From contig CAZFPO010000006.1 in NCBI GenBank assembly GCA_964521105.1, forward strand, positions 2,822 through 66,821: 64,000 nt of DNA, given 5' to 3'. Positions 32,703 to 64,000 of this stretch are shown in pieces. The DNA is from an uncultured Lentimicrobiaceae bacterium. GTDB lineage: Bacteria; Bacteroidota; Bacteroidia; Bacteroidales; WCHB1-69. The notes beneath the pieces are model-generated. The model worked only from the letters and a program-made list of their open reading frames with translations. It ran no database searches and was not told the DNA's origin. A program made the position numbers and the translations under genes. Within the stretch, counting starts at the first letter, position 1. Each line of letters opens with the position of its first letter.

Positions 32703-33803
32703 TTAATCTTCATTATTGAATTGTCGATAAGAGTCAGTTTTCATAATGTCAATTTTGAAATTATTTTCATCAATCTTGATTATAATTACACTATCAAAAC
32801 CGAGCTCATTAAGTATATCTATTGTTGCAAGTTCGCCTTCTTTTAAACGTAATACTTTTCTTAAAAGCCAATCAGACATAGCTTTATTGGGGTCGGTCAT
32901 CAATGCTTTAGAGTTATCTTGACAAACCTTTGCAGTAAATGATTCGCCCGTTGGGATTGATAAGTTAAAATGAACATCCCTGGCAGGAAAAAAATTAGAA
33001 AATTTTTTGTGTATTTCAATTGGAATTGGAATATAAATTTCCCCCATATCACGTGCTCTGCCACCAGCGTTCCATTGATTTAACCCTGATTTTTCATAGA
33101 CAAATTTCTCTTTATTTTTAATACCGTATAGGGGAAGTACAACAAAGTTCACTCCTTTGATTAGTTTGTCTGTTGCTGGTTTTAAAATTTTATTTTCAAA
33201 AAGCTCAAGTAACAGTGTATAGGGATCTTCAATTATTTCAATGGGAAATCTGTATGCATTTTGTGGGATAAAAAACTTTCTAAATAGAGTGCTTTTTGAA
33301 TAATTATAGGAATAAATATTATTCCCATCCTCAAATTGCAAACTTGCTTTATTGTCTTTTATAGAATGAATGTTTGAAATATCAATGGTGTTATAATCTG
33401 TTTCATAAAGTATTAATTCTTTCTCTTTACGAGCTACAATATGATATAATGAACTTTCAATATCGTAGAGGCGGTTTGCTAAATTTATTCTATCGTTTCT
33501 AAATTCACCTAATTTTATGGCGAGTTCTTTGCCTTTAAAATCGGCTAAAACGATAGATAAAGAGTTAAATTCAGCAACCTTTTCTGTGCTATTATTAGAG
33601 TTGCAAGTAAATGTTTTTAAACCAACACCAATTGAATTGTATTTTGCATCAAAAGCAGTGTCTGATCGACTTAAGTTATTTGCATTAAAACTTCTACAAA
33701 AGATATTTTCGGCAACTCTATAATTAATAAACGGTATGGAACTTTCACTGAATAAACCCGATAATTTTGAAACAGCGGAAAGTAACTTTGGAGCTATTAC
33801 CCG
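32703..33803 (-). pseudogene. Restriction-endonuclease-like frame of 367 codons with no ATG/GTG/TTG in its first 154 codons. Probably N-terminally disrupted.
   Basis: Hand translation shows the frame of tracked ORF 32703..33341 stays open upstream to 33803 (RVIAPKLLSAVSKLSGLFSESSIPFINYRVAENIFCRSFNANNLSRSDTAFDAKYNSIGVGLKTF...). An in-frame GTG at 33854 is cut off from it by TGA (33815-33813) and TAA (33806-33804). The C-terminal part (LNQWNAGGRARDMGEIYIPIP...FTAKVCQDNSKALM) recalls DNA-binding modules of type II enzymes. Confidence 0.4.
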
Positions 33804-33871
33804 TTATTCGTTTCAATCTTTTTTGTTAATAAAACGACAATAAAGGATTTTCACTACTATAGGGGCTATGG

Positions 33872-57433: not shown

Positions 57434-57444
57434 AAATTGGTTAA

Positions 57445-57514
57445 TTAAACCCAAAATATTCAATAGGAGATTTGAAAAAATCGAACTACTTGTCTTTTGG
57501 GTTTAATTTTTTTT
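57445..57514 (+). terminator. Long-range hairpin plus T8 run after ahcY
   Basis: TTAAACCCAAAA (57445-57456) pairs with TTTTGGGTTTAA (57495-57506) and is followed by TTTTTTTT. The 38-nt loop makes this less certain. Confidence 0.4.
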
Positions 57515-57538
57515 ACACAACCGAACTTGGATAATTCA

Positions 57539-57546
57539 TAAATTTG
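57539..57546 (+). promoter_or_regulatory. -7 promoter box (TAAATTTG) 3 nt upstream of repeat unit 1
   Basis: Matches TAnnTTTG. The predicted transcription start falls on the first bases of the conserved stem. Confidence 0.4.
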
Positions 57547-57549
57547 GAT

Positions 57550-57714
57550 AAAATTTTCATTTTACCCCTTGCTAGTCGTACTCCGACTCCAAGTCGGGGC
57601 ACGTCTTTTCGATAGGGAAATGAAAATTTTGAAACATTACTTTAAACTTCGCATTGCGACAAAATTTAAAATTTAGATTTTTTTCATCCGCAGAGTCTCC
57701 AGAATGGGACTCTG
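57550..57714 (+). repeat. Structured repeat unit 1: stem module B with a 47-nt apex, partial C box, hairpin A
   Basis: Arms AAAATTTTCATTTTACCC (57550-57567) and GGGAAATGAAAATTTT (57615-57630). Inner hairpin CCGACT-CCA-AGTCGG (57583-57597). GCGACAAAATTTAAAATTTA box. Hairpin CAGAGTC-(10)-GACTCTG (57691-57714). Confidence 0.8.
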
Positions 57715-57752
57715 TTGTTTATCTGAAATAAATACGATAAAAATATTAGAGT

Positions 57753-57760
57753 TATCTTTG
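57753..57760 (+). promoter_or_regulatory. -7 promoter box (TATCTTTG) between repeat units 1 and 2
   Basis: Matches TAnnTTTG and lies 37 nt upstream of the unit 2 stem. Confidence 0.35.
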
Positions 57761-57797
57761 TGAGTCTATCATGGAAGAAAAATAAAGGCTATATGGT

Positions 57798-57991
57798 AAA
57801 ATTTCCATTTTTACCCAGTGCTAGTCTTAATCCGACTCCAAGTCGGGGCACGACTTTTCGATAGGTAAATGAAAATTTTGAAACATCACTTTAAGCGTTA
57901 AATCGCGATAAATTTAAAATTTACAGTTCGATAAACTCACTGCATCGCAATTTAAAACTTCGATTTTATTTATCTGCCATGCCTATGGCAG
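57798..57991 (+). repeat. Structured repeat unit 2: B with 47-nt apex, full C box, hairpin A
   Basis: Arms at 57798-57816 and 57864-57879, with the same CCGACTCCAAGTCGG inner hairpin. C box 57905-57951. Hairpin CTGCCAT-GCCT-ATGGCAG (57974-57991). Confidence 0.8.
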
Positions 57992-58029
57992 GTAAACCTT
58001 TGGCATGACAATGTTAGTATTGTTACGGT

Positions 58030-58080
58030 AAAATTTCCCATTTTTTGCCCTTTTGTTCCCTGAAGGGAAATGGAGATTTT
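58030..58080 (+). repeat. Structured repeat unit 3: B module only, short apex
   Basis: Arms AAAATTTCCCATTTTTTGCCC and GGGAAATGGAGATTTT. The apex is replaced by TTTTGTTCCCTGAA (hairpin TTCCC-TGAA-GGGAA). Similarity to unit 4 fades about 25 nt further on. Confidence 0.75.
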
Positions 58081-58180
58081 ATTTAGTGATTGCAAAAAAC
58101 AGCCAACTTCTTCGCTATTTTTTCTAATTGACACCAATACGATTCAGAAAAACTTAGTTAGGCGGTGCTTTGGGAGAATG

Positions 58181-59260
58181 TTAATTTTTTCCATGAATGA
58201 TTTGAATACATTGATGCCAATAAAAAAATGCTGCTTTATTCGATTTTTTTAATTTATTAAGATGAATGTATCCTTCTTGATTAATCTGTAAGTCTTTAAT
58301 GTCAATGATTTCTATAAACTCAACTAAGGGTGTAAAATCGTGTGTTTTAAGTTTAGCCGCTAAAATAGCAATTTTTGCAGAGGCTTCAATAGCATCATCA
58401 ATACGAAAATTTCCATTAATAATAAAACTTCCAAACTTGGTTATTCCTAGTTTGATTTCATTAAACTTTTGTAGATTTTTGTCTTCATTTTTTTCTCGTA
58501 AAGAAATAAGCAAAGCTGTTTGAATAATGTCATCAAGTACATCTTCGCAACGAATGGATAAATTTCTATATGTTATTTCGTCATTTGCAATACTTCTAAA
58601 TGAATGATAGACATATTCTAGATTATTTGTTTTTCGAATCAATAAAGCCACGTCATATAATTGTTTTACGATTTCAAGTTCCTTGTGTTTAAAATAGGGA
58701 ACTCCAGTTGTGTTAGGTGAGAATGCTGTGAGTTTGTCGCCTAAAATTGAATTTATGGTGGGGATTAAAACGCTGGCTGAAGAATTTGTTGTATTTAGCC
58801 AGTTTGATTCTATTTTCACACCTTGAATTTTGGGGTACTTGTTTTCTTGAAACAATATATCCAGCAAAATATAGCTAGTGTTGTTGTTAAAATTTGAATT
58901 GTAATAAAAAAAGTAATGTGCTTTAGGAATTGACGCATTTTCGTAACTTCTTGCAGTATCTAAACTAAATGAATGAAATTCTGATGATTGTGTGATTTTT
59001 TCAAAAGTAACTTCTAGTTCTTTTCTGGTTTTTGTGCTTAAAATATCTACATCTACCGAAAAACGATTGCTATCTCCTAAAACAAGAGCCAGACTGGTAC
59101 CACCTTTAAAAATAAAATTTATTTCTTCTTGCACCAGACATTCAACGAGATATAGAGCAAATATCATTTTTTCGATTAAAGCAGGATCGCATTTTTTATA
59201 CTTTTCTTCGTTTTTGAAATTTAAAATCCAATCTTTTGTAAAGCTATTTTTGTTTATCAT
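58181..59260 (-). CDS. abiEii: AbiEii/AbiGii-family nucleotidyltransferase toxin
   Basis: 359 aa. FKGGTSLALVLGDSNRFSVDVDI nucleotidyltransferase signature. Its start directly abuts the stop of the upstream AbiEi-like gene. Confidence 0.75.
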   Translation of the reverse strand: MINKNSFTKDWILNFKNEEKYKKCDPALIEKMIFALYLVECLVQEEINFIFKGGTSLALVLGDSNRFSVDVDILSTKTRKELEVTFEKITQSSEFHSFSLDTARSYENASIPKAHYFFYYNSNFNNNTSYILLDILFQENKYPKIQGVKIESNWLNTTNSSASVLIPTINSILGDKLTAFSPNTTGVPYFKHKELEIVKQLYDVALLIRKTNNLEYVYHSFRSIANDEITYRNLSIRCEDVLDDIIQTALLISLREKNEDKNLQKFNEIKLGITKFGSFIINGNFRIDDAIEASAKIAILAAKLKTHDFTPLVEFIEIIDIKDLQINQEGYIHLNKLKKSNKAAFFYWHQCIQIIHGKN

Positions 59261-60040
59261 TTATATTAGACCGTTTAGTTGATTATTGAAGTGTTTTGTC
59301 AAAAAATCTTTTAGCTGCTTGTTTTTTTTTCGTCTTTCAGCATAGTTTAAAAGAGTTGAGAAATTAATGTTCAATGTTCTCAAAATGTTCTCAAAAATCC
59401 ATTTTTGTTCGACACCTGAATAGAGGTAAAACGTTTCATCATCGCAAAAAATGTCTACTAAAATTTTTTCTATGGAGGCATAGTTGATTCCATTATGATA
59501 ATCAATAGGCGATCTGGTAATGAGCGGTTGAATGATTATACTATTAGCAGCGGAAAGAACATATTTTTCGATTTGTTTTGAATCGACTTCATAAAACACA
59601 TTAAATCCGTGGTCTTTTAAAAAGTAAAAAACCGACTCGCATTGTTCTTTTTCGGTTTCAAGAATATAAAAGAATTGCATTGGAACATGATTCATATAGC
59701 TTGCAAGCCAAGCCGATGACCAAATGCAGTAATTTAAATCTCTGTATTTCGAAATAAACAATTTTTGAATTTTATCAATAGTTTCATCTTGAGGGAATTG
59801 AAAGTTAATTTTATTATTAATTACATATTTTCCCTTGGCTAAATCATGAATTAATCCTTTTTGTCGCCATCTAAATATCTTGATATTCAAGGCACTATCC
59901 GATACAAACCCCCCATAGCTAATCAATAAGTCTTGTACATCATGCTTTGTAAAAAACGTTTTTAGCTCTAAGGTTTCTAATATTTTTTTTTCTGTATTAC
60001 TCACTGTTTTTTTTTGCAAAAATAGTAAATTAACCCACAA
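59261..60040 (-). CDS. abiEi: AbiEi-family antitoxin/transcriptional regulator. Start uncertain (TTG 60040 or GTG 60004).
   Basis: 259 aa. N-terminal winged-helix-like segment (KKILETLELKTFFTKHDVQDLL...KGLIHDLAKGKYVI). Gene order and stop/start abutment (TAA ATG) are typical of abiE operons. No ATG near the 5' end. Confidence 0.6.
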   Translation of the reverse strand: MWVNLLFLQKKTVSNTEKKILETLELKTFFTKHDVQDLLISYGGFVSDSALNIKIFRWRQKGLIHDLAKGKYVINNKINFQFPQDETIDKIQKLFISKYRDLNYCIWSSAWLASYMNHVPMQFFYILETEKEQCESVFYFLKDHGFNVFYEVDSKQIEKYVLSAANSIIIQPLITRSPIDYHNGINYASIEKILVDIFCDDETFYLYSGVEQKWIFENILRTLNINFSTLLNYAERRKKNKQLKDFLTKHFNNQLNGLI

Positions 60041-60074
60041 TAATAATAAATGTGGTAAATAATACTTTATTTTA

Positions 60075-60253
60075 CTGCCATGTCAATGGACAGACAAATA
60101 ATTTGAAAGGGTGAGATGATAAAATTTCCATTTTAACCCTTTTGTTCCCTGAAGGGAAATGAAAATTTTATTTACATTACAGCAAATATCAGATACTCGT
60201 TGCGTTGCGACAAATTTAAAATTTACAGTTCGATAAACTCACTGCATCGCAAT
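60075..60253 (+). repeat. Structured repeat unit 4: hairpin A, B with short apex, full C box
   Basis: Hairpin CTGCCAT-GTCA-ATGGACAG (60075-60093). Arms at 60121-60139 and 60154-60169. C box 60207-60253. Its AAATTTAAAATTTACAGTTCGATAAACTCACTGCATCGCAAT run matches unit 2 exactly. Confidence 0.8.
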
Positions 60254-60316
60254 TACCAATTTGAAATTTACAATGTCTTATTTCGGTTTCGTTAATGGCA
60301 AAAAGTCCGTCGGGAG

Positions 60317-60324
60317 CAAAGATA
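60317..60324 (-). promoter_or_regulatory. -7 promoter box (TATCTTTG) pointing toward abiEi, with tandem AATTCGTAAAT repeats just upstream
   Basis: Minus-strand TATCTTTG. The direct repeat ATTTACGAATT occurs at 60348-60358 and 60361-60371, at about the -33 position. A second candidate box, TAAATTTG, lies at 60211-60218 inside the C box. Confidence 0.35.
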
Positions 60325-60393
60325 TAAAGCATACACATATAAATTGCATTTACGAATTGAATTTACGAATTATGTTTTAATAATAATTTTTGC

Positions 60394-60756
60394 TTATCTA
60401 TATTTACTTAATGCCCAACCAAAAAAGAAAATAGTAGCTAATAAGTAAACGACTATCAAGACTCCTTTTACTTGCCGTTTGCCATTTTCTTCTCCATCCC
60501 AACGCTGCTGGAATTTTTTTAAATTCTTATAGTTAAATAAGAAAACCCAGTTGAGTATCATTAGAGGTATTGCAATATAAACCCACGAATAAGTAGTCAT
60601 TCGTAATGAAAAAATGAAGTATAATAAGGTGATTAAATTAAACCCCTGAAAGAGAGTAACTAAACCACTTGCAAAAATATCAGGTCTTTGAGTTTCTATA
60701 CCAGATTTTATATAGATATTACTTATCCTGTAAAAAATATAATTAAATAAATTCAT
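60394..60756 (-). CDS. Small polytopic membrane protein, putative immunity protein for the upstream toxin tip
   Basis: 120 aa with 3-4 predicted TM helices. It starts 18 nt after the toxin gene stop. Confidence 0.5.
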   Translation of the reverse strand: MNLFNYIFYRISNIYIKSGIETQRPDIFASGLVTLFQGFNLITLLYFIFSLRMTTYSWVYIAIPLMILNWVFLFNYKNLKKFQQRWDGEENGKRQVKGVLIVVYLLATIFFFGWALSKYR

Positions 60757-60773
60757 GCTTAATGTGTTATTAA

Positions 60774-61994
60774 CTATTTAAATGGCAGTATCATAATATT
60801 ATATTGACCTTTTGCTACATCGCTATACCCTTCAGTTGCTTGAACATTATATTGAGCATTTAGCTTCATCAATGGCTTAGAAGCAAAATATATTCCTGAA
60901 GTGGCTGCTCCTGGCATTCCGATAAGACCAACAGCACCCATTCCAATGTCGAACCCGTATTCAAATTGCTGTGCAGGGTCATTAGTGTTGTCAAATTGAG
61001 CAATCGAAATGCCTATTCCCAAAACTGAAGCTCCTACACCAAGATATTTCATTCCATTTAAAAATTTCACATTACTTAAAAAGCTTGATTTTTGGGCAGC
61101 AACTAAGGAAGATGAAACATACTGATTCCCTTGAAATCCTAAACTCCAAGCTTTTAAAACACCATTAACATTAGCTGAAAATCTTCCACATTTTAGCAAG
61201 CTCATTTTGGAACTTAAATTACCAAAAGTAGTAATTGAACTGGTTGCGATACTTGCTCCACTTAATCCTAATCCTATATAATTCATTGCATCTGAATATA
61301 AAAATGGTGTTGCATTACCTCCTTGCATAGGCTTAATAACACGTCCTTCTCCCTCAACCCTAAATGTTCCTGCACCTGCTGTAAATTTAAAATTGTTGTT
61401 TTGTGATAAATTATCTTGTCGTGTAGTTTGTGTTTCATCGTAATTATTGAACAGTGCTATAATTTCTTGATATTTTTCAAAGTTTTTGTACACCCACGAA
61501 CCATCGCTGTTTCCAATAAAATTGGCTGTTTCGAATGATTCAGCTTTATATTGCCAAACTCTTCCGCTACCATCGGTATAAGTTGGGTCGCTGATATCGT
61601 TATAATGGGTATAGTAGGTATTTGGACCAGCAATATGCTCGTACCACGGATATAGCGCAGTATACCCACTCGGATCCACATACTTCAATGGATTATTTAA
61701 ACAATAGCTATAGCGGTTGTAGTTTTGGGAGTTATTTGGGTTTTGTAAAACTGGGTCGGGCGAAAGGAAGTTCATGGTCATGGGGTCGTAAACCCTACCA
61801 TATGTTGAGGCTTCGCCTCGATGTGCCTCACGCTCGGCATAGTTCAAGCAAGCTTGACTCTGCTCTCGCTTAATCGGCACGTTCATGTTAATCAATCCAA
61901 AGTTTGGTAAATGCTCATGACTGGTGTAACCTCTGTCGGTAACTGAACTTAAGGTGATGTTATATGAATACATTCTTGTCATAATTTTTATCAA
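60774..61994 (-). CDS. Orphan RHS/YD-repeat C-terminal tip with a glycine-zipper membrane-toxin-like domain
   Basis: 406 aa. RHS core end RGYTSHEHLPNFGLINMN...GRVYDPMTMNFLSPDP...NYNRYSYCLNNPLKYVDPSGY, then a variable domain with Gly/Ala/Ser-rich hydrophobic segments (GLGLSGASIATS, GVGASVLGIGISIA, GMGAVGLIGMPGAATSG). No RHS repeat body lies upstream. Confidence 0.7.
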   Translation of the reverse strand: MIKIMTRMYSYNITLSSVTDRGYTSHEHLPNFGLINMNVPIKREQSQACLNYAEREAHRGEASTYGRVYDPMTMNFLSPDPVLQNPNNSQNYNRYSYCLNNPLKYVDPSGYTALYPWYEHIAGPNTYYTHYNDISDPTYTDGSGRVWQYKAESFETANFIGNSDGSWVYKNFEKYQEIIALFNNYDETQTTRQDNLSQNNNFKFTAGAGTFRVEGEGRVIKPMQGGNATPFLYSDAMNYIGLGLSGASIATSSITTFGNLSSKMSLLKCGRFSANVNGVLKAWSLGFQGNQYVSSSLVAAQKSSFLSNVKFLNGMKYLGVGASVLGIGISIAQFDNTNDPAQQFEYGFDIGMGAVGLIGMPGAATSGIYFASKPLMKLNAQYNVQATEGYSDVAKGQYNIMILPFK

Positions 61995-62000
61995 AGTTAC

Positions 62001-62420
62001 CTAAAAGGAACCATAAAGAAAACCAAATATTGGTAAAGTTCCTAATGATATGATTATAAATATTATGGTATAAATATTTCCTTTTCTTTTTTGTTCATCA
62101 CTTTCTTTTACATATTTCAAAAAGATATCTTTAAATCGATTGTTTGACAAGAAATAAAAGTGGTTGAAAATACTATAAATTACAAACAATGTCATCATTA
62201 CCACTTTAAATTCAGGAAAATCATCAAGTGTAATATGGTTTTGTTTTGCTAAAGTTACTAATGGTAATATGAAAATAATTATAAACAAGGAAATAAAGGA
62301 AAAACTTAATGTCAATATAGCATCAATGTGAGCATTATCTTTTCTTGATTTTTTTCTTCTCCAATAACGATGTATTTTATAAAAGAGATAATCGTAAATG
62401 TCGGTTATTTTGATGTTCAT
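62001..62420 (-). CDS. Small membrane protein, orphan immunity-like
   Basis: 139 aa with a basic N-terminus and three TM helices. Sits in the toxin/immunity array. Confidence 0.4.
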   Translation of the reverse strand: MNIKITDIYDYLFYKIHRYWRRKKSRKDNAHIDAILTLSFSFISLFIIIFILPLVTLAKQNHITLDDFPEFKVVMMTLFVIYSIFNHFYFLSNNRFKDIFLKYVKESDEQKRKGNIYTIIFIIISLGTLPIFGFLYGSF

Positions 62421-62433
62421 TTCTAATTAAGTT

Positions 62434-62748
62434 TTAAACAACATTACTTTTTTTGTTTCTATTTCTAATATAAAACCAATAGTAGTAGAATATTAAGTAG
62501 ATAGCATTGAACATGAATAACATAAAAGTATGAATTGGATTTTTGCTGACTTTATGAGCATTAATAAAACAGTAAATCCATAGAACTCCAGAACCTAAAG
62601 ATAATAGAATATAAATAAGTTTAACCCAAAAGTGTTCATCAAAATATTTCAAGAAATTAAATCCTAAACCTGCAAGAAAAACAGGAGCCACAATAGTTAA
62701 GATTGCAATAATATTCATAATCCAAAATAAATCTAATAGTTTTTTCAT
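62434..62748 (-). CDS. Small membrane protein, orphan immunity-like
   Basis: 104 aa with three TM helices. Minus-strand -7 box TATCTTTG at 62800-62807. Confidence 0.4.
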   Translation of the reverse strand: MKKLLDLFWIMNIIAILTIVAPVFLAGLGFNFLKYFDEHFWVKLIYILLSLGSGVLWIYCFINAHKVSKNPIHTFMLFMFNAIYLIFYYYWFYIRNRNKKSNVV

Positions 62749-62799
62749 GGAACTTATAATTTAAAGTACAACAAATTATGAAAACACGTCTGTTTAATG

Positions 62800-62807
62800 C
62801 AAAGATA
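62800..62807 (-). promoter_or_regulatory. -7 promoter box (TATCTTTG) upstream of the 104-aa membrane protein gene
   Basis: Minus-strand TATCTTTG lies 51 nt upstream of the start at 62748. Confidence 0.4.
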
Positions 62808-62997
62808 TAAAGAATATCACTTAACTAAATTTGTTTTGGCAATGTTTTTTATAGCGAGATTCTTCATTTCATCCAGTTTTATTCAATAAAGCAAACTTTT
62901 GTTTTTTATTGGAAAGAGAGAGAAAAAACACGGTAATAGTTTTGAGAAATGGCAGTGGTTTAGAATGTTTGATTCATGTTACAAAAATAAATATTTT

Positions 62998-63537
62998 CTA
63001 GAAACGATAGTCTTCCGTTTTTACCAAACTCCCATTTTCATCCCAGTATTTCCATATTCCAATTGGTTTTCCATATTCATAGTAAAGTTCAGTTGCTTTT
63101 ACTCCATTTAAGTACCAAGTTTCGCATTTTCCATGAAAAACATTGTTTTTATAGGACATTACACTTCCAATCTGTCCATCTGGATTATAATATGAAACAA
63201 CGCCAGTCCCATTTTTAACCAATTGATTACCTTTAATATCCCAAAAATCTAACGAAACTAGGATGCCATTTTTAAATTCCTGAATTGATTGAATGAAACC
63301 ATTATCATAAAAGTAGTACCATATACCGGTCATTTGTCCATTCTTGTATTGACCTTTTGCTTGAATCTTGCCGTTCTCATAATAGGCTTTAGTTTTTCCA
63401 TCAAATTTTCCATTAAGCAAATGGTACTCTTCTTTTAATTTACCATTGCTATAATATTCTTGATGCTCATCTGTGTTGCAGGATGTTAAAAAAAACACTA
63501 TTATATACAATAATATATTATATTTTTGGTTTATCAT
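62998..63537 (-). CDS. MORN-repeat / YwqK-family immunity (antitoxin) protein
   Basis: 179 aa. Signal/lipoprotein-like N-terminus (FFLTSC). Repeated YYSNGKLKEEY, YYENGKIQAKGQYKNGQMTGIW and WYLNGVKATELYYEYGKPIGIW modules. Confidence 0.7.
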   Translation of the reverse strand: MINQKYNILLYIIVFFLTSCNTDEHQEYYSNGKLKEEYHLLNGKFDGKTKAYYENGKIQAKGQYKNGQMTGIWYYFYDNGFIQSIQEFKNGILVSLDFWDIKGNQLVKNGTGVVSYYNPDGQIGSVMSYKNNVFHGKCETWYLNGVKATELYYEYGKPIGIWKYWDENGSLVKTEDYRF

Positions 63538-63542
63538 ATATG

Positions 63543-64000
63543 CTATTTTCTGTTTATAAAAGGGTTATTGGGGTCAGTATTCATACCTTGCTTCCAACTA
63601 CTATATACTCGAATTTGAACATTAACTACACCACTTATTTGTGTGCTAAGCTGAAATGACCAATTAATTGGCAGATAATCATGCCTATAAAAGTCGAAAG
63701 CCTTTGATTGATATGGGAATAGTTGAAAGCTATAGGAATCTCCAGAATAAACCTTTTTTTTAAGCCCAATAAAACTTTCTTCATAATGAAAAGAGGTTAC
63801 GTCTTCTAAATCCAATTGTACTCCGAATAAATTTTTGTTTTCTATTTCAATTTTTACATGTTGACTAGCATTAAAACTAAATTTTAAAGGGTCTGATTTC
63901 CAATAACCGTCATAAACATAATTGTCAGCATAACAGAGTAATTGGTTTGTGTTTGTTAATCCATTATCATTTTTTTTCATCCTTTCTCCCTCAACACGAA
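63543..64000 (-). CDS. C-terminal part of a protein whose frame is open to the window edge. Possibly the toxin domain cognate to the YwqK-like gene, or a 145-aa protein starting at ATG 63980.
   Basis: The tracked ORF starts at 63980, but the in-frame codons upstream (..RVEGER) contain no stop up to position 64000. Beta-rich sequence. No family recognised. Confidence 0.35.
   Translation of the reverse strand, partial: RVEGERMKKNDNGLTNTNQLLCYADNYVYDGYWKSDPLKFSFNASQHVKIEIENKNLFGVQLDLEDVTSFHYEESFIGLKKKVYSGDSYSFQLFPYQSKAFDFYRHDYLPINWSFQLSTQISGVVNVQIRVYSSWKQGMNTDPNNPFINRK

What the first reader, a model, noticed from the sequence alone, without database searches (positions are those of the whole stretch)
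57539..58105. Tandem array of about 230-250 bp non-coding units, each with a conserved long stem and an interchangeable apical module
Three consecutive units follow ahcY, with B-module starts at 57550, 57798 and 58030. A fourth unit lies at 60075-60253. Each unit is built around the same imperfect stem: 5' arm AAAATTT(T/C)CATTTT..CCC and 3' arm GG(G/T)AAATG(A/G)A(A/G)ATTTT.

The apex of the stem differs between copies. Units 1-2 carry a 47-nt apex containing the hairpin CCGACT-CCA-AGTCGG. Units 3-4 carry the unrelated 14-nt TTTTGTTCCCTGAA, which forms the hairpin TTCCC-TGAA-GGGAA. Unit 3 also has a compensatory change in the stem: T to C in the 5' arm paired with A to G in the 3' arm. This suggests the structure itself is under selection.

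The stem is followed by a conserved box of about 47 nt (GCGA[C/T]AAATTTAAAATTTACAGTTCGATAAACTCACTGCATCGCAAT), whose ends TTGCGA/TCGCAA can pair. A short GC hairpin comes next. A TAnnTTTG promoter box sits 3 nt before unit 1, so its predicted transcript would begin exactly at the stem. No ORF longer than a few codons fits the units.

Conserved ends with a variable centre, arranged periodically next to defence genes, could fit a family of small structured RNAs, a recombination-site array or a MITE-like element. I do not recognise it as a known RNA family.
Basis: seen in the sequence. Interest (0 to 1): 0.75.

Follow-up and report, generated by a model that had tools for sequence, protein, structure and literature searches.

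The report
Hairpin repeat units bracketing an AbiE module
The four units are real, non-coding, hairpin-headed DNA repeats at the strain-variable end of a toxin/immunity island in an uncultured Bacteroidales genome; they resemble undescribed repeats that bracket small accessory genes in other Bacteroidota and do not look like small-RNA genes.

Summary
There are four hairpin-headed units, with stems at 57549-57631, 57797-57880, 58029-58081 and 60120-70. They have two apex types, a 42-nt box that is identical in units 2 and 4, and no conserved ORF. No other copy exists in the 64-kb window.

New context:
- An AbiEi/AbiEii toxin-antitoxin operon (58181-60004, minus strand) lies between units 3 and 4. 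It is bracketed by a 57-nt direct repeat of the stem.
- To the right is a co-oriented orphan RHS-toxin/immunity gene array.
- Assemblies of the same organism break at 57489 and 60300. A relative whose AhcY is 97% identical has a tRNA gene at this position instead.

There is no hit in Rfam, tRNA scans, plasmids, phages or viral contigs.

The short-apex hairpin shares a core, TTTTGYTCCCTNNAGGG, with repeat units in three other Bacteroidota loci. There the units directly flank DUF559 nuclease genes and form gene-less tandem arrays.

Support for an RNA reading is weak. Only 1 of 17 stem pairs covaries, and 206 of 500 shuffles score as high. Only unit 1 has a promoter-like box at the stem, and that motif is common in the window.

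Best reading (about 0.45): these are DNA-level palindromic repeats at module boundaries. The kind of element is known, but this family appears undescribed. Interest is moderate.

The parts
57443..57516 (+). Inverted repeat AATTAAACCCAAAA / TTTTGGGTTTAATT followed by a run of eight T. This is the likely ahcY terminator. Assemblies of the same organism break inside its loop, at 57489.
   Evidence: (I5)
57539..57546 (+). TAAATTTG box (TAnnTTTG type), 3 nt before stem 1. It is the only such box placed at a stem.
57549..57631 (+). Unit 1 stem with the long 47-nt apex (CCGACT-CCA-AGTCGG).
57654..57676 (+). Unit 1 truncated box (TTGCGACAAAATTTAAAATTTAG).
57690..57725 (+). GC hairpin a (GCAGAGTCTC..GGGACTCTGT) with a T-rich tail. 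It is the only canonical terminator-like site inside the array.
57797..57880 (+). Unit 2 stem with the long apex.
57902..57951 (+). Unit 2 box. Its ends, ATCGCGAT/ATCGCAAT, can pair. The 42-nt core is identical to that of unit 4.
57974..57991 (+). GC hairpin b (CTGCCAT-GCCT-ATGGCAG). An assembly break falls at 57982.
58029..58105 (+). Unit 3. The short-apex stem (TTCCC-TGAA-GGGAA) spans 58029-58081. About 25 nt of post-stem similarity to unit 4 follows. This is the left copy of the direct repeat that brackets AbiE.
   Evidence: (D3)
58181..59260 (-). abiEii (DUF1814 nucleotidyltransferase toxin).
59261..60004 (-). abiEi (DUF6577 antitoxin/regulator). It starts at the GTG used in the gene calls on the public assemblies.
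60017..60067 (-). The AbiE module's own promoter box (TATTTTTG, 60017-60024) and an operator-like inverted repeat (TTTACCACA..TGTGGG). Similarity to other AbiE modules ends at about 60067.
60075..60093 (+). GC hairpin b' (CTGCCATGTCAATGGACAG), the counterpart of hairpin b.
60120..60170 (+). Unit 4 short-apex stem, the right copy of the direct repeat that brackets AbiE. An assembly break falls at 60165.
60205..60253 (+). Unit 4 box (ends TTGCGA/TCGCAA).
60300..60333 (-). Right edge of the variable segment, with an assembly break at 60300. It holds a small hairpin plus T5 after the 120-aa gene, and a promoter-like TATCTTTG box (60317-60324) inside an 18-nt repeat that also heads the module at 62799-62816.
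60394..61994 (-). Context: an orphan RHS C-terminal toxin module (60774-61994) and a weak Bfi1-like immunity gene (60394-60756). Both are co-oriented with AbiE.

Best explanation
The units are DNA-level palindromic repeat units that mark module boundaries at the distal, strain-variable end of an accessory-gene island. They are not four small-RNA genes.

Shown:
- Four mosaic units, all in the same orientation, lie between the convergent 3' ends of ahcY and an orphan RHS-toxin/immunity array.
- A self-contained AbiE operon, with its own promoter and operator, is inserted between units 3 and 4. It is bracketed by a 57-nt direct repeat of the stem.
- The short-apex hairpin shares its core, TTTTGYTCCCTNNAGGG, with repeat units in other Bacteroidota. 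Those units directly flank DUF559 genes, and in one locus they also form gene-less tandem arrays.

Inferred: the hairpin units act as substrates for recombination, either homology-driven between units or site-specific by an enzyme not yet identified.
- A circular or linear module that carries one unit integrates at a resident unit. This leaves unit-gene-unit.
- Unequal exchange between units duplicates, deletes and reshuffles stems, apexes and boxes. That would give the mosaic and the gene-less units.

When the hairpins are transcribed by read-through they probably act only as incidental 3'-end structures.
For: - Insertion: AbiE lies between units 3 and 4. Its similarity to other AbiE modules ends at about 60067 and at the stop codon. 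A flanking direct repeat, 58029-58085 versus 60120-60174, brackets it.
- Mosaic sharing of modules among the units.
- All four copies lie on the + strand, and there are no others in 64 kb.
- Assembly breaks in three samples fall at 57489 and 60300, and at 57982 and 60165 inside units. These are not explained by repeats of 31 nt or more within the window, so variant alleles or further copies probably exist.
- The relative with 97% identical AhcY has a tRNA gene after ahcY instead.
- An AbiE homologue in another genome sits inside a tRNA-Gln array.
- L072/L081: two units of about 165 nt flank a DUF559 gene. Their hairpins closely match the window stems, at 44 and 38 bits.
- L080: six copies of the related hairpin lie within 7 kb, two of them flanking DUF559 and the others in gene-less tandem arrays. 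L082-85: hairpins sit on both sides of DUF559.
- Across organisms the core is conserved while the arm sequences differ and stay complementary.
- Right flank: RHS-associated core domain at 46.5 bits, above its cut-off, plus immunity-like genes co-oriented with AbiE.
Against: - No recombinase, transposase or DUF559 gene lies in the window.
- The other gene junctions of the right-hand array carry no hairpin unit.
- Units 1-2 have a different apex with no relatives found.
- The link to L072 began from a pattern search that fixed 25 stem positions. The evidence independent of that pattern is limited. It consists of the shared CCCTNNAGGG/TTTTGYTCCCT core, a 10-mer before the stem that ranks top of 59 (with three chance 9-mers), and the twofold occurrence in L072.
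- Hairpin orientation relative to the adjacent gene differs between loci.
- No empty or occupied site pair was obtained, so no crossover point is known.
- The three other AbiE contexts examined lack the hairpin.
Confidence: 0.45

Rival explanations
1. A family of small structured RNAs encoded in tandem. Each unit would be transcribed from its own start, the long stem being the functional RNA structure and the apex a specificity module.
For: - The stems fold well. On the + strand z = -2.2 to -5.2. Only units 1 and 4 were folded on the minus strand (z = -4.3 and -4.0).
- Unit 1 has a TAnnTTTG box 3 nt before the stem and a canonical terminator-like hairpin 60 nt after it. This would give an RNA of about 170 nt.
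- One stem position reads T-A, C-G or a mismatch across copies.
- Tandem small-RNA genes are known in other bacteria (own knowledge: LhrC1-4, PrrF1/2).
Against: - Units 3-4 have no promoter box upstream, unit 2 has one only 37 nt before its stem, and neither has a U-tailed terminator.
- The box motif is barely enriched in the window, 136 matches against 115 expected.
- Covariation is not significant, with 206 of 500 shuffles as high.
- Mismatches and wobble pairs favour neither strand.
- No Rfam family matches.
- Related units in other organisms sit inside operons, directly flanking a gene on both sides.
Confidence: 0.15
2. REP/BIME-like extragenic palindromes whose role is at the RNA level. 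They would act as bidirectional terminators, or as 3'-end stabilisers and insulators between the convergent ahcY and island transcripts. Their copy number would drift by slippage or unequal exchange.
For: - The location lies between convergent 3' ends.
- The stems are A-tract/T-tract palindromes that would fold on either strand.
- The units form a modular mosaic in tandem.
- Related L080 hairpins have an AAAAAGC..GCTTTTT form followed by T5.
- REP elements are thought to act in termination and mRNA stabilisation (PMC3733652).
Against: - The same stem and core sequence recurs in organisms of different base composition, which generic terminators do not show.
- The L082 hairpins have no U tail on either strand and lie inside an rml operon.
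- ahcY already has its own hairpin plus T8.
- There is no GTAG/CGTC tag and no tyrosine transposase among the window ORFs tested.
Confidence: 0.2
3. A neutral local tandem duplication of one ancestral non-coding segment, followed by decay and a chance AbiE insertion. It would have no function.
For: - All copies are local and in the same orientation.
- Identity between units is 81-91% in the matched stretches, and the box is identical, which suggests recent events.
Against: - The apex is replaced cleanly between otherwise near-identical stems.
- The short apex matches a core found in unrelated loci and organisms.
- The unit-gene-unit architecture recurs in other Bacteroidota loci.
Confidence: 0.1

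Closest known systems
REP / BIME / REPIN extragenic palindromes (PMC3733652, PMC3337134, PMC3116915)
   Same: They are short imperfect palindromes in extragenic DNA. The stems are conserved more than the spacer or loop. They cluster in mosaic tandem arrays, often after 3' ends of genes, and are non-coding.
   Different: These units have no GTAG or CGTC end tag and no RAYT gene was seen. The arms are AT-rich around a small GC core. All copies in 64 kb are at one locus rather than dispersed. The units of 150-250 nt include extra boxes.
MITEs such as Neisseria Correia elements or pneumococcal BOX elements (own knowledge)
   Same: They have terminal inverted repeats with a variable interior and a possible flanking TA. 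BOX elements are modular (boxA/B/C). The transcripts form hairpins.
   Different: Here the flanks outside the stems are also repeated, so the copies are not independent insertions. No dispersed copies or unambiguous target-site duplications could be shown.
Integron attC sites and integrase-less attC clusters (CALINs) (own knowledge)
   Same: Each is an imperfect hairpin with conserved arms and a variable centre. They are arranged in one orientation and bracket promoterless or self-expressed small modules, including toxin-antitoxin genes. Gene-less cassettes also occur.
   Different: No RYYYAAC/GTTRRRY boxes are present and no IntI gene was found. The spacing and extra boxes are unlike cassettes.
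rAID-1 orphan-immunity arrays of Bacteroidales (bioRxiv 10.1101/471110; PMC12247911)
   Same: The order is Bacteroidales. The neighbouring genes are co-oriented, short and low in GC, and include immunity-like and RHS-toxin-fragment genes. The published arrays have conserved repetitive intergenic motifs described as integron-like, and they vary between strains.
   Different: The defining XerD-like recombinase is not in the window. Hairpin units occur only at the distal end, not between every gene. The published motif is shown only in a figure, so it could not be compared.

Membership tests
Any Rfam RNA family | Score at or above the family's gathering threshold. | tested here: not met
   The best hit in the region is rteR at 20.9 bits against a threshold of 72. 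The whole window has only Flavo-1, at 33793-33871. The related loci L072, L080 and L082 have no hit at E <= 0.1.
tRNA / tmRNA | Cloverleaf detected by ARAGORN. | tested here: not met
   No genes were found in the whole window.
Integron attC | R'' (RYYYAAC) and R' (GTTRRRY) boxes at the base of the hairpin. | tested here: not met
   The stem bases read TAAAATTTYC / GRAAATTTTR. No GTTRRRY lies at the 3' side of any unit.
Integron attC | Nearby IntI-type integrase. | tested here: not met
   No recombinase was found among the genes at 54-64 kb. Sequence beyond 64000 is unknown.
REP / REPIN | Conserved GTAG or CGTC tetranucleotide at one end of the palindrome (PMC3733652). | tested here: not met
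   It is absent from all four stems and from the related hairpins.
REP / REPIN | Tens to hundreds of dispersed copies per genome, plus a RAYT gene. | tested here: inconclusive
   Only the four clustered copies exist in 64 kb. No Y1 transposase was found among the ORFs tested. The rest of the genome is not available.
MITE | Terminal inverted repeats plus target-site duplications at independent insertion sites. | tested here: inconclusive
   Inverted arms are present. A possible TA lies at both ends in units 3 and 4, in L072 and in L048, but it is part of the palindrome. The sequence flanking the stems is itself repeated between units.
rAID-1 array | 5' XerD-like tyrosine recombinase. | not testable with these tools
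   The array runs off the window at 64000, and the source genome is not retrievable.
rAID-1 array | Two or more co-oriented downstream short genes of at most 41% GC, with immunity homologues. | tested here: met
   Eight minus-strand genes lie at 58181-63980, with GC of 25-37%. There is an RHS core domain hit, plus sub-threshold Bfi1-like and MORN_2 hits.
rAID-1 array | The conserved intergenic motif of published rAID-1 clusters. | not testable with these tools
   The motif is shown only as a figure in 10.1101/471110.
Type III toxin-antitoxin RNA repeats (ToxI-like) | Short tandem repeats (about 35 nt) directly upstream of the toxin gene, followed by a terminator. | tested here: not met
   The period is 230-250 nt and the adjacent toxin system is type IV AbiE. 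Tandem Repeats Finder reports no array here.
DUF559-associated hairpin units (family proposed here) | An AT-rich stem enclosing the core CCC(C)..CCCTNNAGGG, or TTTTGYTCCCTNNAGGG. | tested here: met
   Units 3 and 4 carry TTTTGTTCCCTGAAGGG. L072 and L081 carry TTTTGCTCCCTTTAGGG, and L080 carries TTTTGCTCCCTTTGGGG. Units 1 and 2 lack the core.
DUF559-associated hairpin units (family proposed here) | Adjacent DUF559 gene. | tested here: not met
   tblastn of 61 DUF559 proteins against the window gave no hit below E = 0.06, and none in the array.

The most novel reading that the evidence does not exclude
The hairpin units may be the recombination sites of an integron-like cassette system in Bacteroidota. 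In this system small selfish or defensive modules would be captured, excised and shuffled at hairpins with a CCCTNNAGGG core. Examples are DUF559 nucleases, AbiE and orphan immunity genes. The enzyme would act in trans and could be a XerD-like rAID recombinase or the DUF559 nuclease itself, acting as a homing enzyme. The window would then show the distal end of such an array, with three empty sites.
Probability: 0.15. Interest if true: 0.75.

Novelty: new member of a known kind. Interest (0 to 1): 0.4.

Why it matters
How Bacteroidales assemble and reshuffle their arrays of orphan immunity and defence genes is still open; PMC12247911 calls rAID biogenesis an area of active research. A defined hairpin repeat that brackets inserted modules in several Bacteroidota would give a concrete candidate for the DNA substrate of that gene flux. 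It would also give a sequence signature for finding such hotspots. If the units are only extragenic palindromes, the result is a new repeat family in a phylum where few are described. It would be useful mainly for annotation and for explaining assembly breaks.

Tried and rejected
- Rfam on the region (E <= 10) and on the whole window: nothing relevant.
- tRNA or tRNA remnants: none in the window. This was considered because a relative has a tRNA at this position and an AbiE homologue lies in a tRNA-Gln array.
- CRISPR or type III antitoxin-like short tandem repeats: none.
- Coding potential: there are only short, non-conserved ORFs, and the unit 1/2 differences are non-synonymous in the shared frame.
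- Stem pattern scan of 185,579 species genomes: 16 single hits in unrelated taxa that match only the pattern arms. The source genome is absent.
- Box 23-mer in metagenomes: 0 hits.
- Stem pattern in metagenomes: 41 loci, nearly all single chance hits or conserved coding sequence. Only L072, and possibly L048, are credible.
- Viral contigs, five patterns: one chance hit.
- Plasmid and phage blastn with the window array, and plasmid blastn with the L081 and L080 units: no match.
- Contexts of the AbiEii homologues P0002, P0003 and P0006: no such hairpins, so the units are not part of the AbiE module.
- Synteny after ahcY in relatives with 87-97% identical AhcY: not conserved, with no units.
- DUF559 remnants in the window: none.
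- RAYT, integrase or transposase among nearby and small ORFs: none.
- An inverted copy of the hairpin-b region in the unit 1 tail (I2): judged to be a chance AT-rich match.
- Literature on DUF559 plus repeats, or on AbiE plus flanking repeats: nothing relevant.

Full report
**What is there.** Four long imperfect hairpins lie at 57549-57631, 57797-57880, 58029-58081 and 60120-60170.

- The stem pattern AAAATTTYC..AAATGRARATTTT finds only these four, against none in shuffles.
- An unfiltered covariance-model scan of all 64 kb scores them at 66-81 bits on the + strand. The next best hit scores 22.5 bits.
- Units 1-2 carry a 47-nt apex with CCGACT-CCA-AGTCGG. Units 3-4 carry TTTTGTTCCCTGAA.
- A 42-nt box is identical at 57910-57951 and 60212-60253. 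It is truncated in unit 1 and missing in unit 3.
- GC hairpins lie at 57690-57715, 57974-57991 and 60075-60093. Only the first looks like a terminator.
- ORFs in the units are at most 35 aa and are not conserved.
- The units form a mosaic. Unit 2 shares 134 nt with unit 1. Its box matches unit 4 at 47 of 48 positions. Unit 4 shares its stem with unit 3.

- Between units 3 and 4 lies a complete AbiEi/AbiEii toxin-antitoxin operon on the minus strand (58181-60004). The hits are Pfam AbiEii and DUF6577, and PADLOC AbiEii at 1.7e-118 and AbiEi at 2.7e-63.
- The operon has its own TAnnTTTG box (60017-60024) and an operator-like repeat, TTTACCAC..GTGG. The same repeat is seen upstream of abiEi in other genomes.
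- Similarity to other AbiE modules stops at about 60067 and at the stop codon. The module is therefore an insertion bracketed by a 57-nt direct repeat of the stem, 58029-58085 versus 60120-60174.
- To the right, co-oriented with AbiE, is a run of short genes. They comprise an orphan RHS C-terminal toxin module (Rhs_assc_core at 46.5 bits, above its cut-off; motif NPLKYVDPSG), two weak Bfi1-like immunity genes and a MORN_2 protein.
- The organism is an uncultured Bacteroidales-like bacterium, judged from the source names of the best AhcY homologues.

**Evidence that the segment is variable.** Public assemblies of the same organism, from three runs, end at window positions 57489 and 60300. The contig holding AbiE ends at 57982 and 60165, inside units. 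The only exact repeat of 31 nt or more within the window is the box, and it does not predict these ends. Variant alleles or further copies therefore probably exist in those samples; this is an inference. A relative whose AhcY is 97% identical has a different terminator and then a tRNA gene after ahcY. An AbiEii homologue at 64% identity sits within a tRNA-Gln array next to hipAB. AbiE modules thus tend to land in arrays of repeated structured elements.

**Relatives.** There is no match in Rfam, in plasmids or phages, or in viral contigs.

- The stem pattern gave only chance single hits in 185,579 species genomes.
- The box 23-mer found nothing in metagenomes.
- The stem pattern in metagenomes gave 41 loci, nearly all chance hits. 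One contig, L072, is different, and L081 is the same locus from another sample. It has two copies of a hairpin close to the window's (44 and 38 bits). Each copy is followed by a second hairpin, and the two units of about 165 nt flank a DUF559 nuclease-like gene.
- Support for L072 beyond the positions fixed by the search pattern is modest. It shares the apex core CCCTNNAGGG and a 10-mer before the stem. That 10-mer ranks first of 59, although three 9-mers occur by chance.

I then followed homologues of the DUF559 protein, independently of any DNA pattern.

- In L080, six copies of AAAAAGC..CCCCCTAAAGGGGG..GCTTTTT lie within 7 kb of the 20-kb locus. Two directly flank DUF559. The others sit in gene-less tandem arrays inside non-coding gaps of 1.1-1.4 kb.
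- In L082-85, hairpins of the form ATTCATTTTTC..CCCTTYAGGG..GAAAAATGAAT lie on both sides of DUF559, between rmlD and rmlA.
- The core is conserved across these loci while the arms differ and remain complementary. The window reads TTTTGTTCCCTGAAGGG, L072 reads TTTTGCTCCCTTTAGGG and L080 reads TTTTGCTCCCTTTGGGG.
- None of these loci hits Rfam, and I found no paper describing them.

**Against the small-RNA reading.**

- On the model alignment of six copies (seven aligned rows; one L081 copy enters on both strands), 12 of 17 stem pairs never vary. One pair changes on both sides, and 206 of 500 shuffles score as high.
- Mismatches and wobble pairs favour neither strand.
- TAnnTTTG occurs 136 times in the window against 115 expected. 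It precedes only unit 1 at the stem, and a second box lies 37 nt before stem 2.
- Unit 1 alone, with box, stem and terminator-like hairpin, could make an RNA of about 170 nt. That possibility remains open.

**Interpretation.** The units are best read as DNA-level palindromic repeat units that mark module boundaries in a variable island. The mechanism is inferred, not shown: recombination at or between units, giving unit-gene-unit, gene-less units and mosaics. No enzyme was identified, and no empty or occupied site pair was recovered.

The nearest known kinds are these:

- REP/BIME/REPIN palindromes (PMC3733652, PMC3337134). The GTAG/CGTC tag and the dispersal were not met or could not be tested.
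- MITEs.
- Integron attC arrays. The R boxes and the integrase were not met.
[quoted passage not shown] Neither the rAID recombinase nor its motif could be checked here.

**Verdict.** This is a new member of a known kind, of moderate interest.

Noticed in passing
window 60394-63980 (minus strand): This is a co-oriented array typical of polymorphic-toxin and orphan-immunity loci. It holds an orphan RHS C-terminal toxin module (60774-61994), two sub-threshold Bfi1-like immunity genes (60394-60756 and 62001-62420) and a MORN_2 protein (62998-63537). The last 17 nt of the window repeat a stretch of the RHS module (61347-61363), which suggests another toxin tail beyond 64000.
   Followed up: partly
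window 60316-60333 and 62799-62816 (minus strand): A 17-of-18-nt repeat, TATRCTTTATATCTTTGC, contains a TAnnTTTG box. One copy heads the 62748 gene module. The other points from the end of the 120-aa gene towards unit 4 and AbiE.
   Followed up: no
window 33793-33871 (minus strand): A Flavo-1 RNA (RF01705) scores 56.5 bits against a threshold of 42. It is the only Rfam hit in the window. It lies in an 800-nt gap next to an ORF (32703-33341) with an NgoFVII restriction-enzyme C-terminal domain.
   Followed up: no
L027/L028 (AhcY 97% identical), last 40 nt of L027: In the closest relative, ahcY is followed by a different terminator and then the start of a tRNA gene (GCCTCTTTAGCTCAGCGGTAGAGCAGCTCACTCGTA). 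The window has no tRNA at all.
   Followed up: partly
L022 4280-7430 (GCA_038319215.1): An AbiEi/AbiEii homologue lies inside an array of tRNA-Gln genes next to a hipA/hipB pair. The flanking tRNA genes form 112-nt direct repeats around it.
   Followed up: partly
L080 7241-8312 and 13035-13751 (GCA_964586655.1): Non-coding blocks of about 1 kb, made of several repeat families, are 83-93% identical. They bracket a 5.5-kb set of accessory genes (AAA_14 ATPase, DUF559, epimerase, PDDEXK_3, rmlA) in a polysaccharide locus.
   Followed up: partly
The search for homologous proteins list for AbiEii: Many close AbiEii homologues sit on contigs of only 1.9-2.3 kb, about the size of the two-gene module. 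This suggests that assemblies often break just outside AbiE modules in many metagenomes.
   Followed up: no
L048 1669-1755 (Ga0079220_10045175): A single AT-rich hairpin has arms matching window units 1-2 (GTAAAATTTTCATTA..GGTAAATGAAAATTTTAT) and an apex of two GC hairpins. It lies in a promoter region of a Bacteroidota contig with higher GC, and scores 32 bits with the stem model. It is possibly a further family member.
   Followed up: partly
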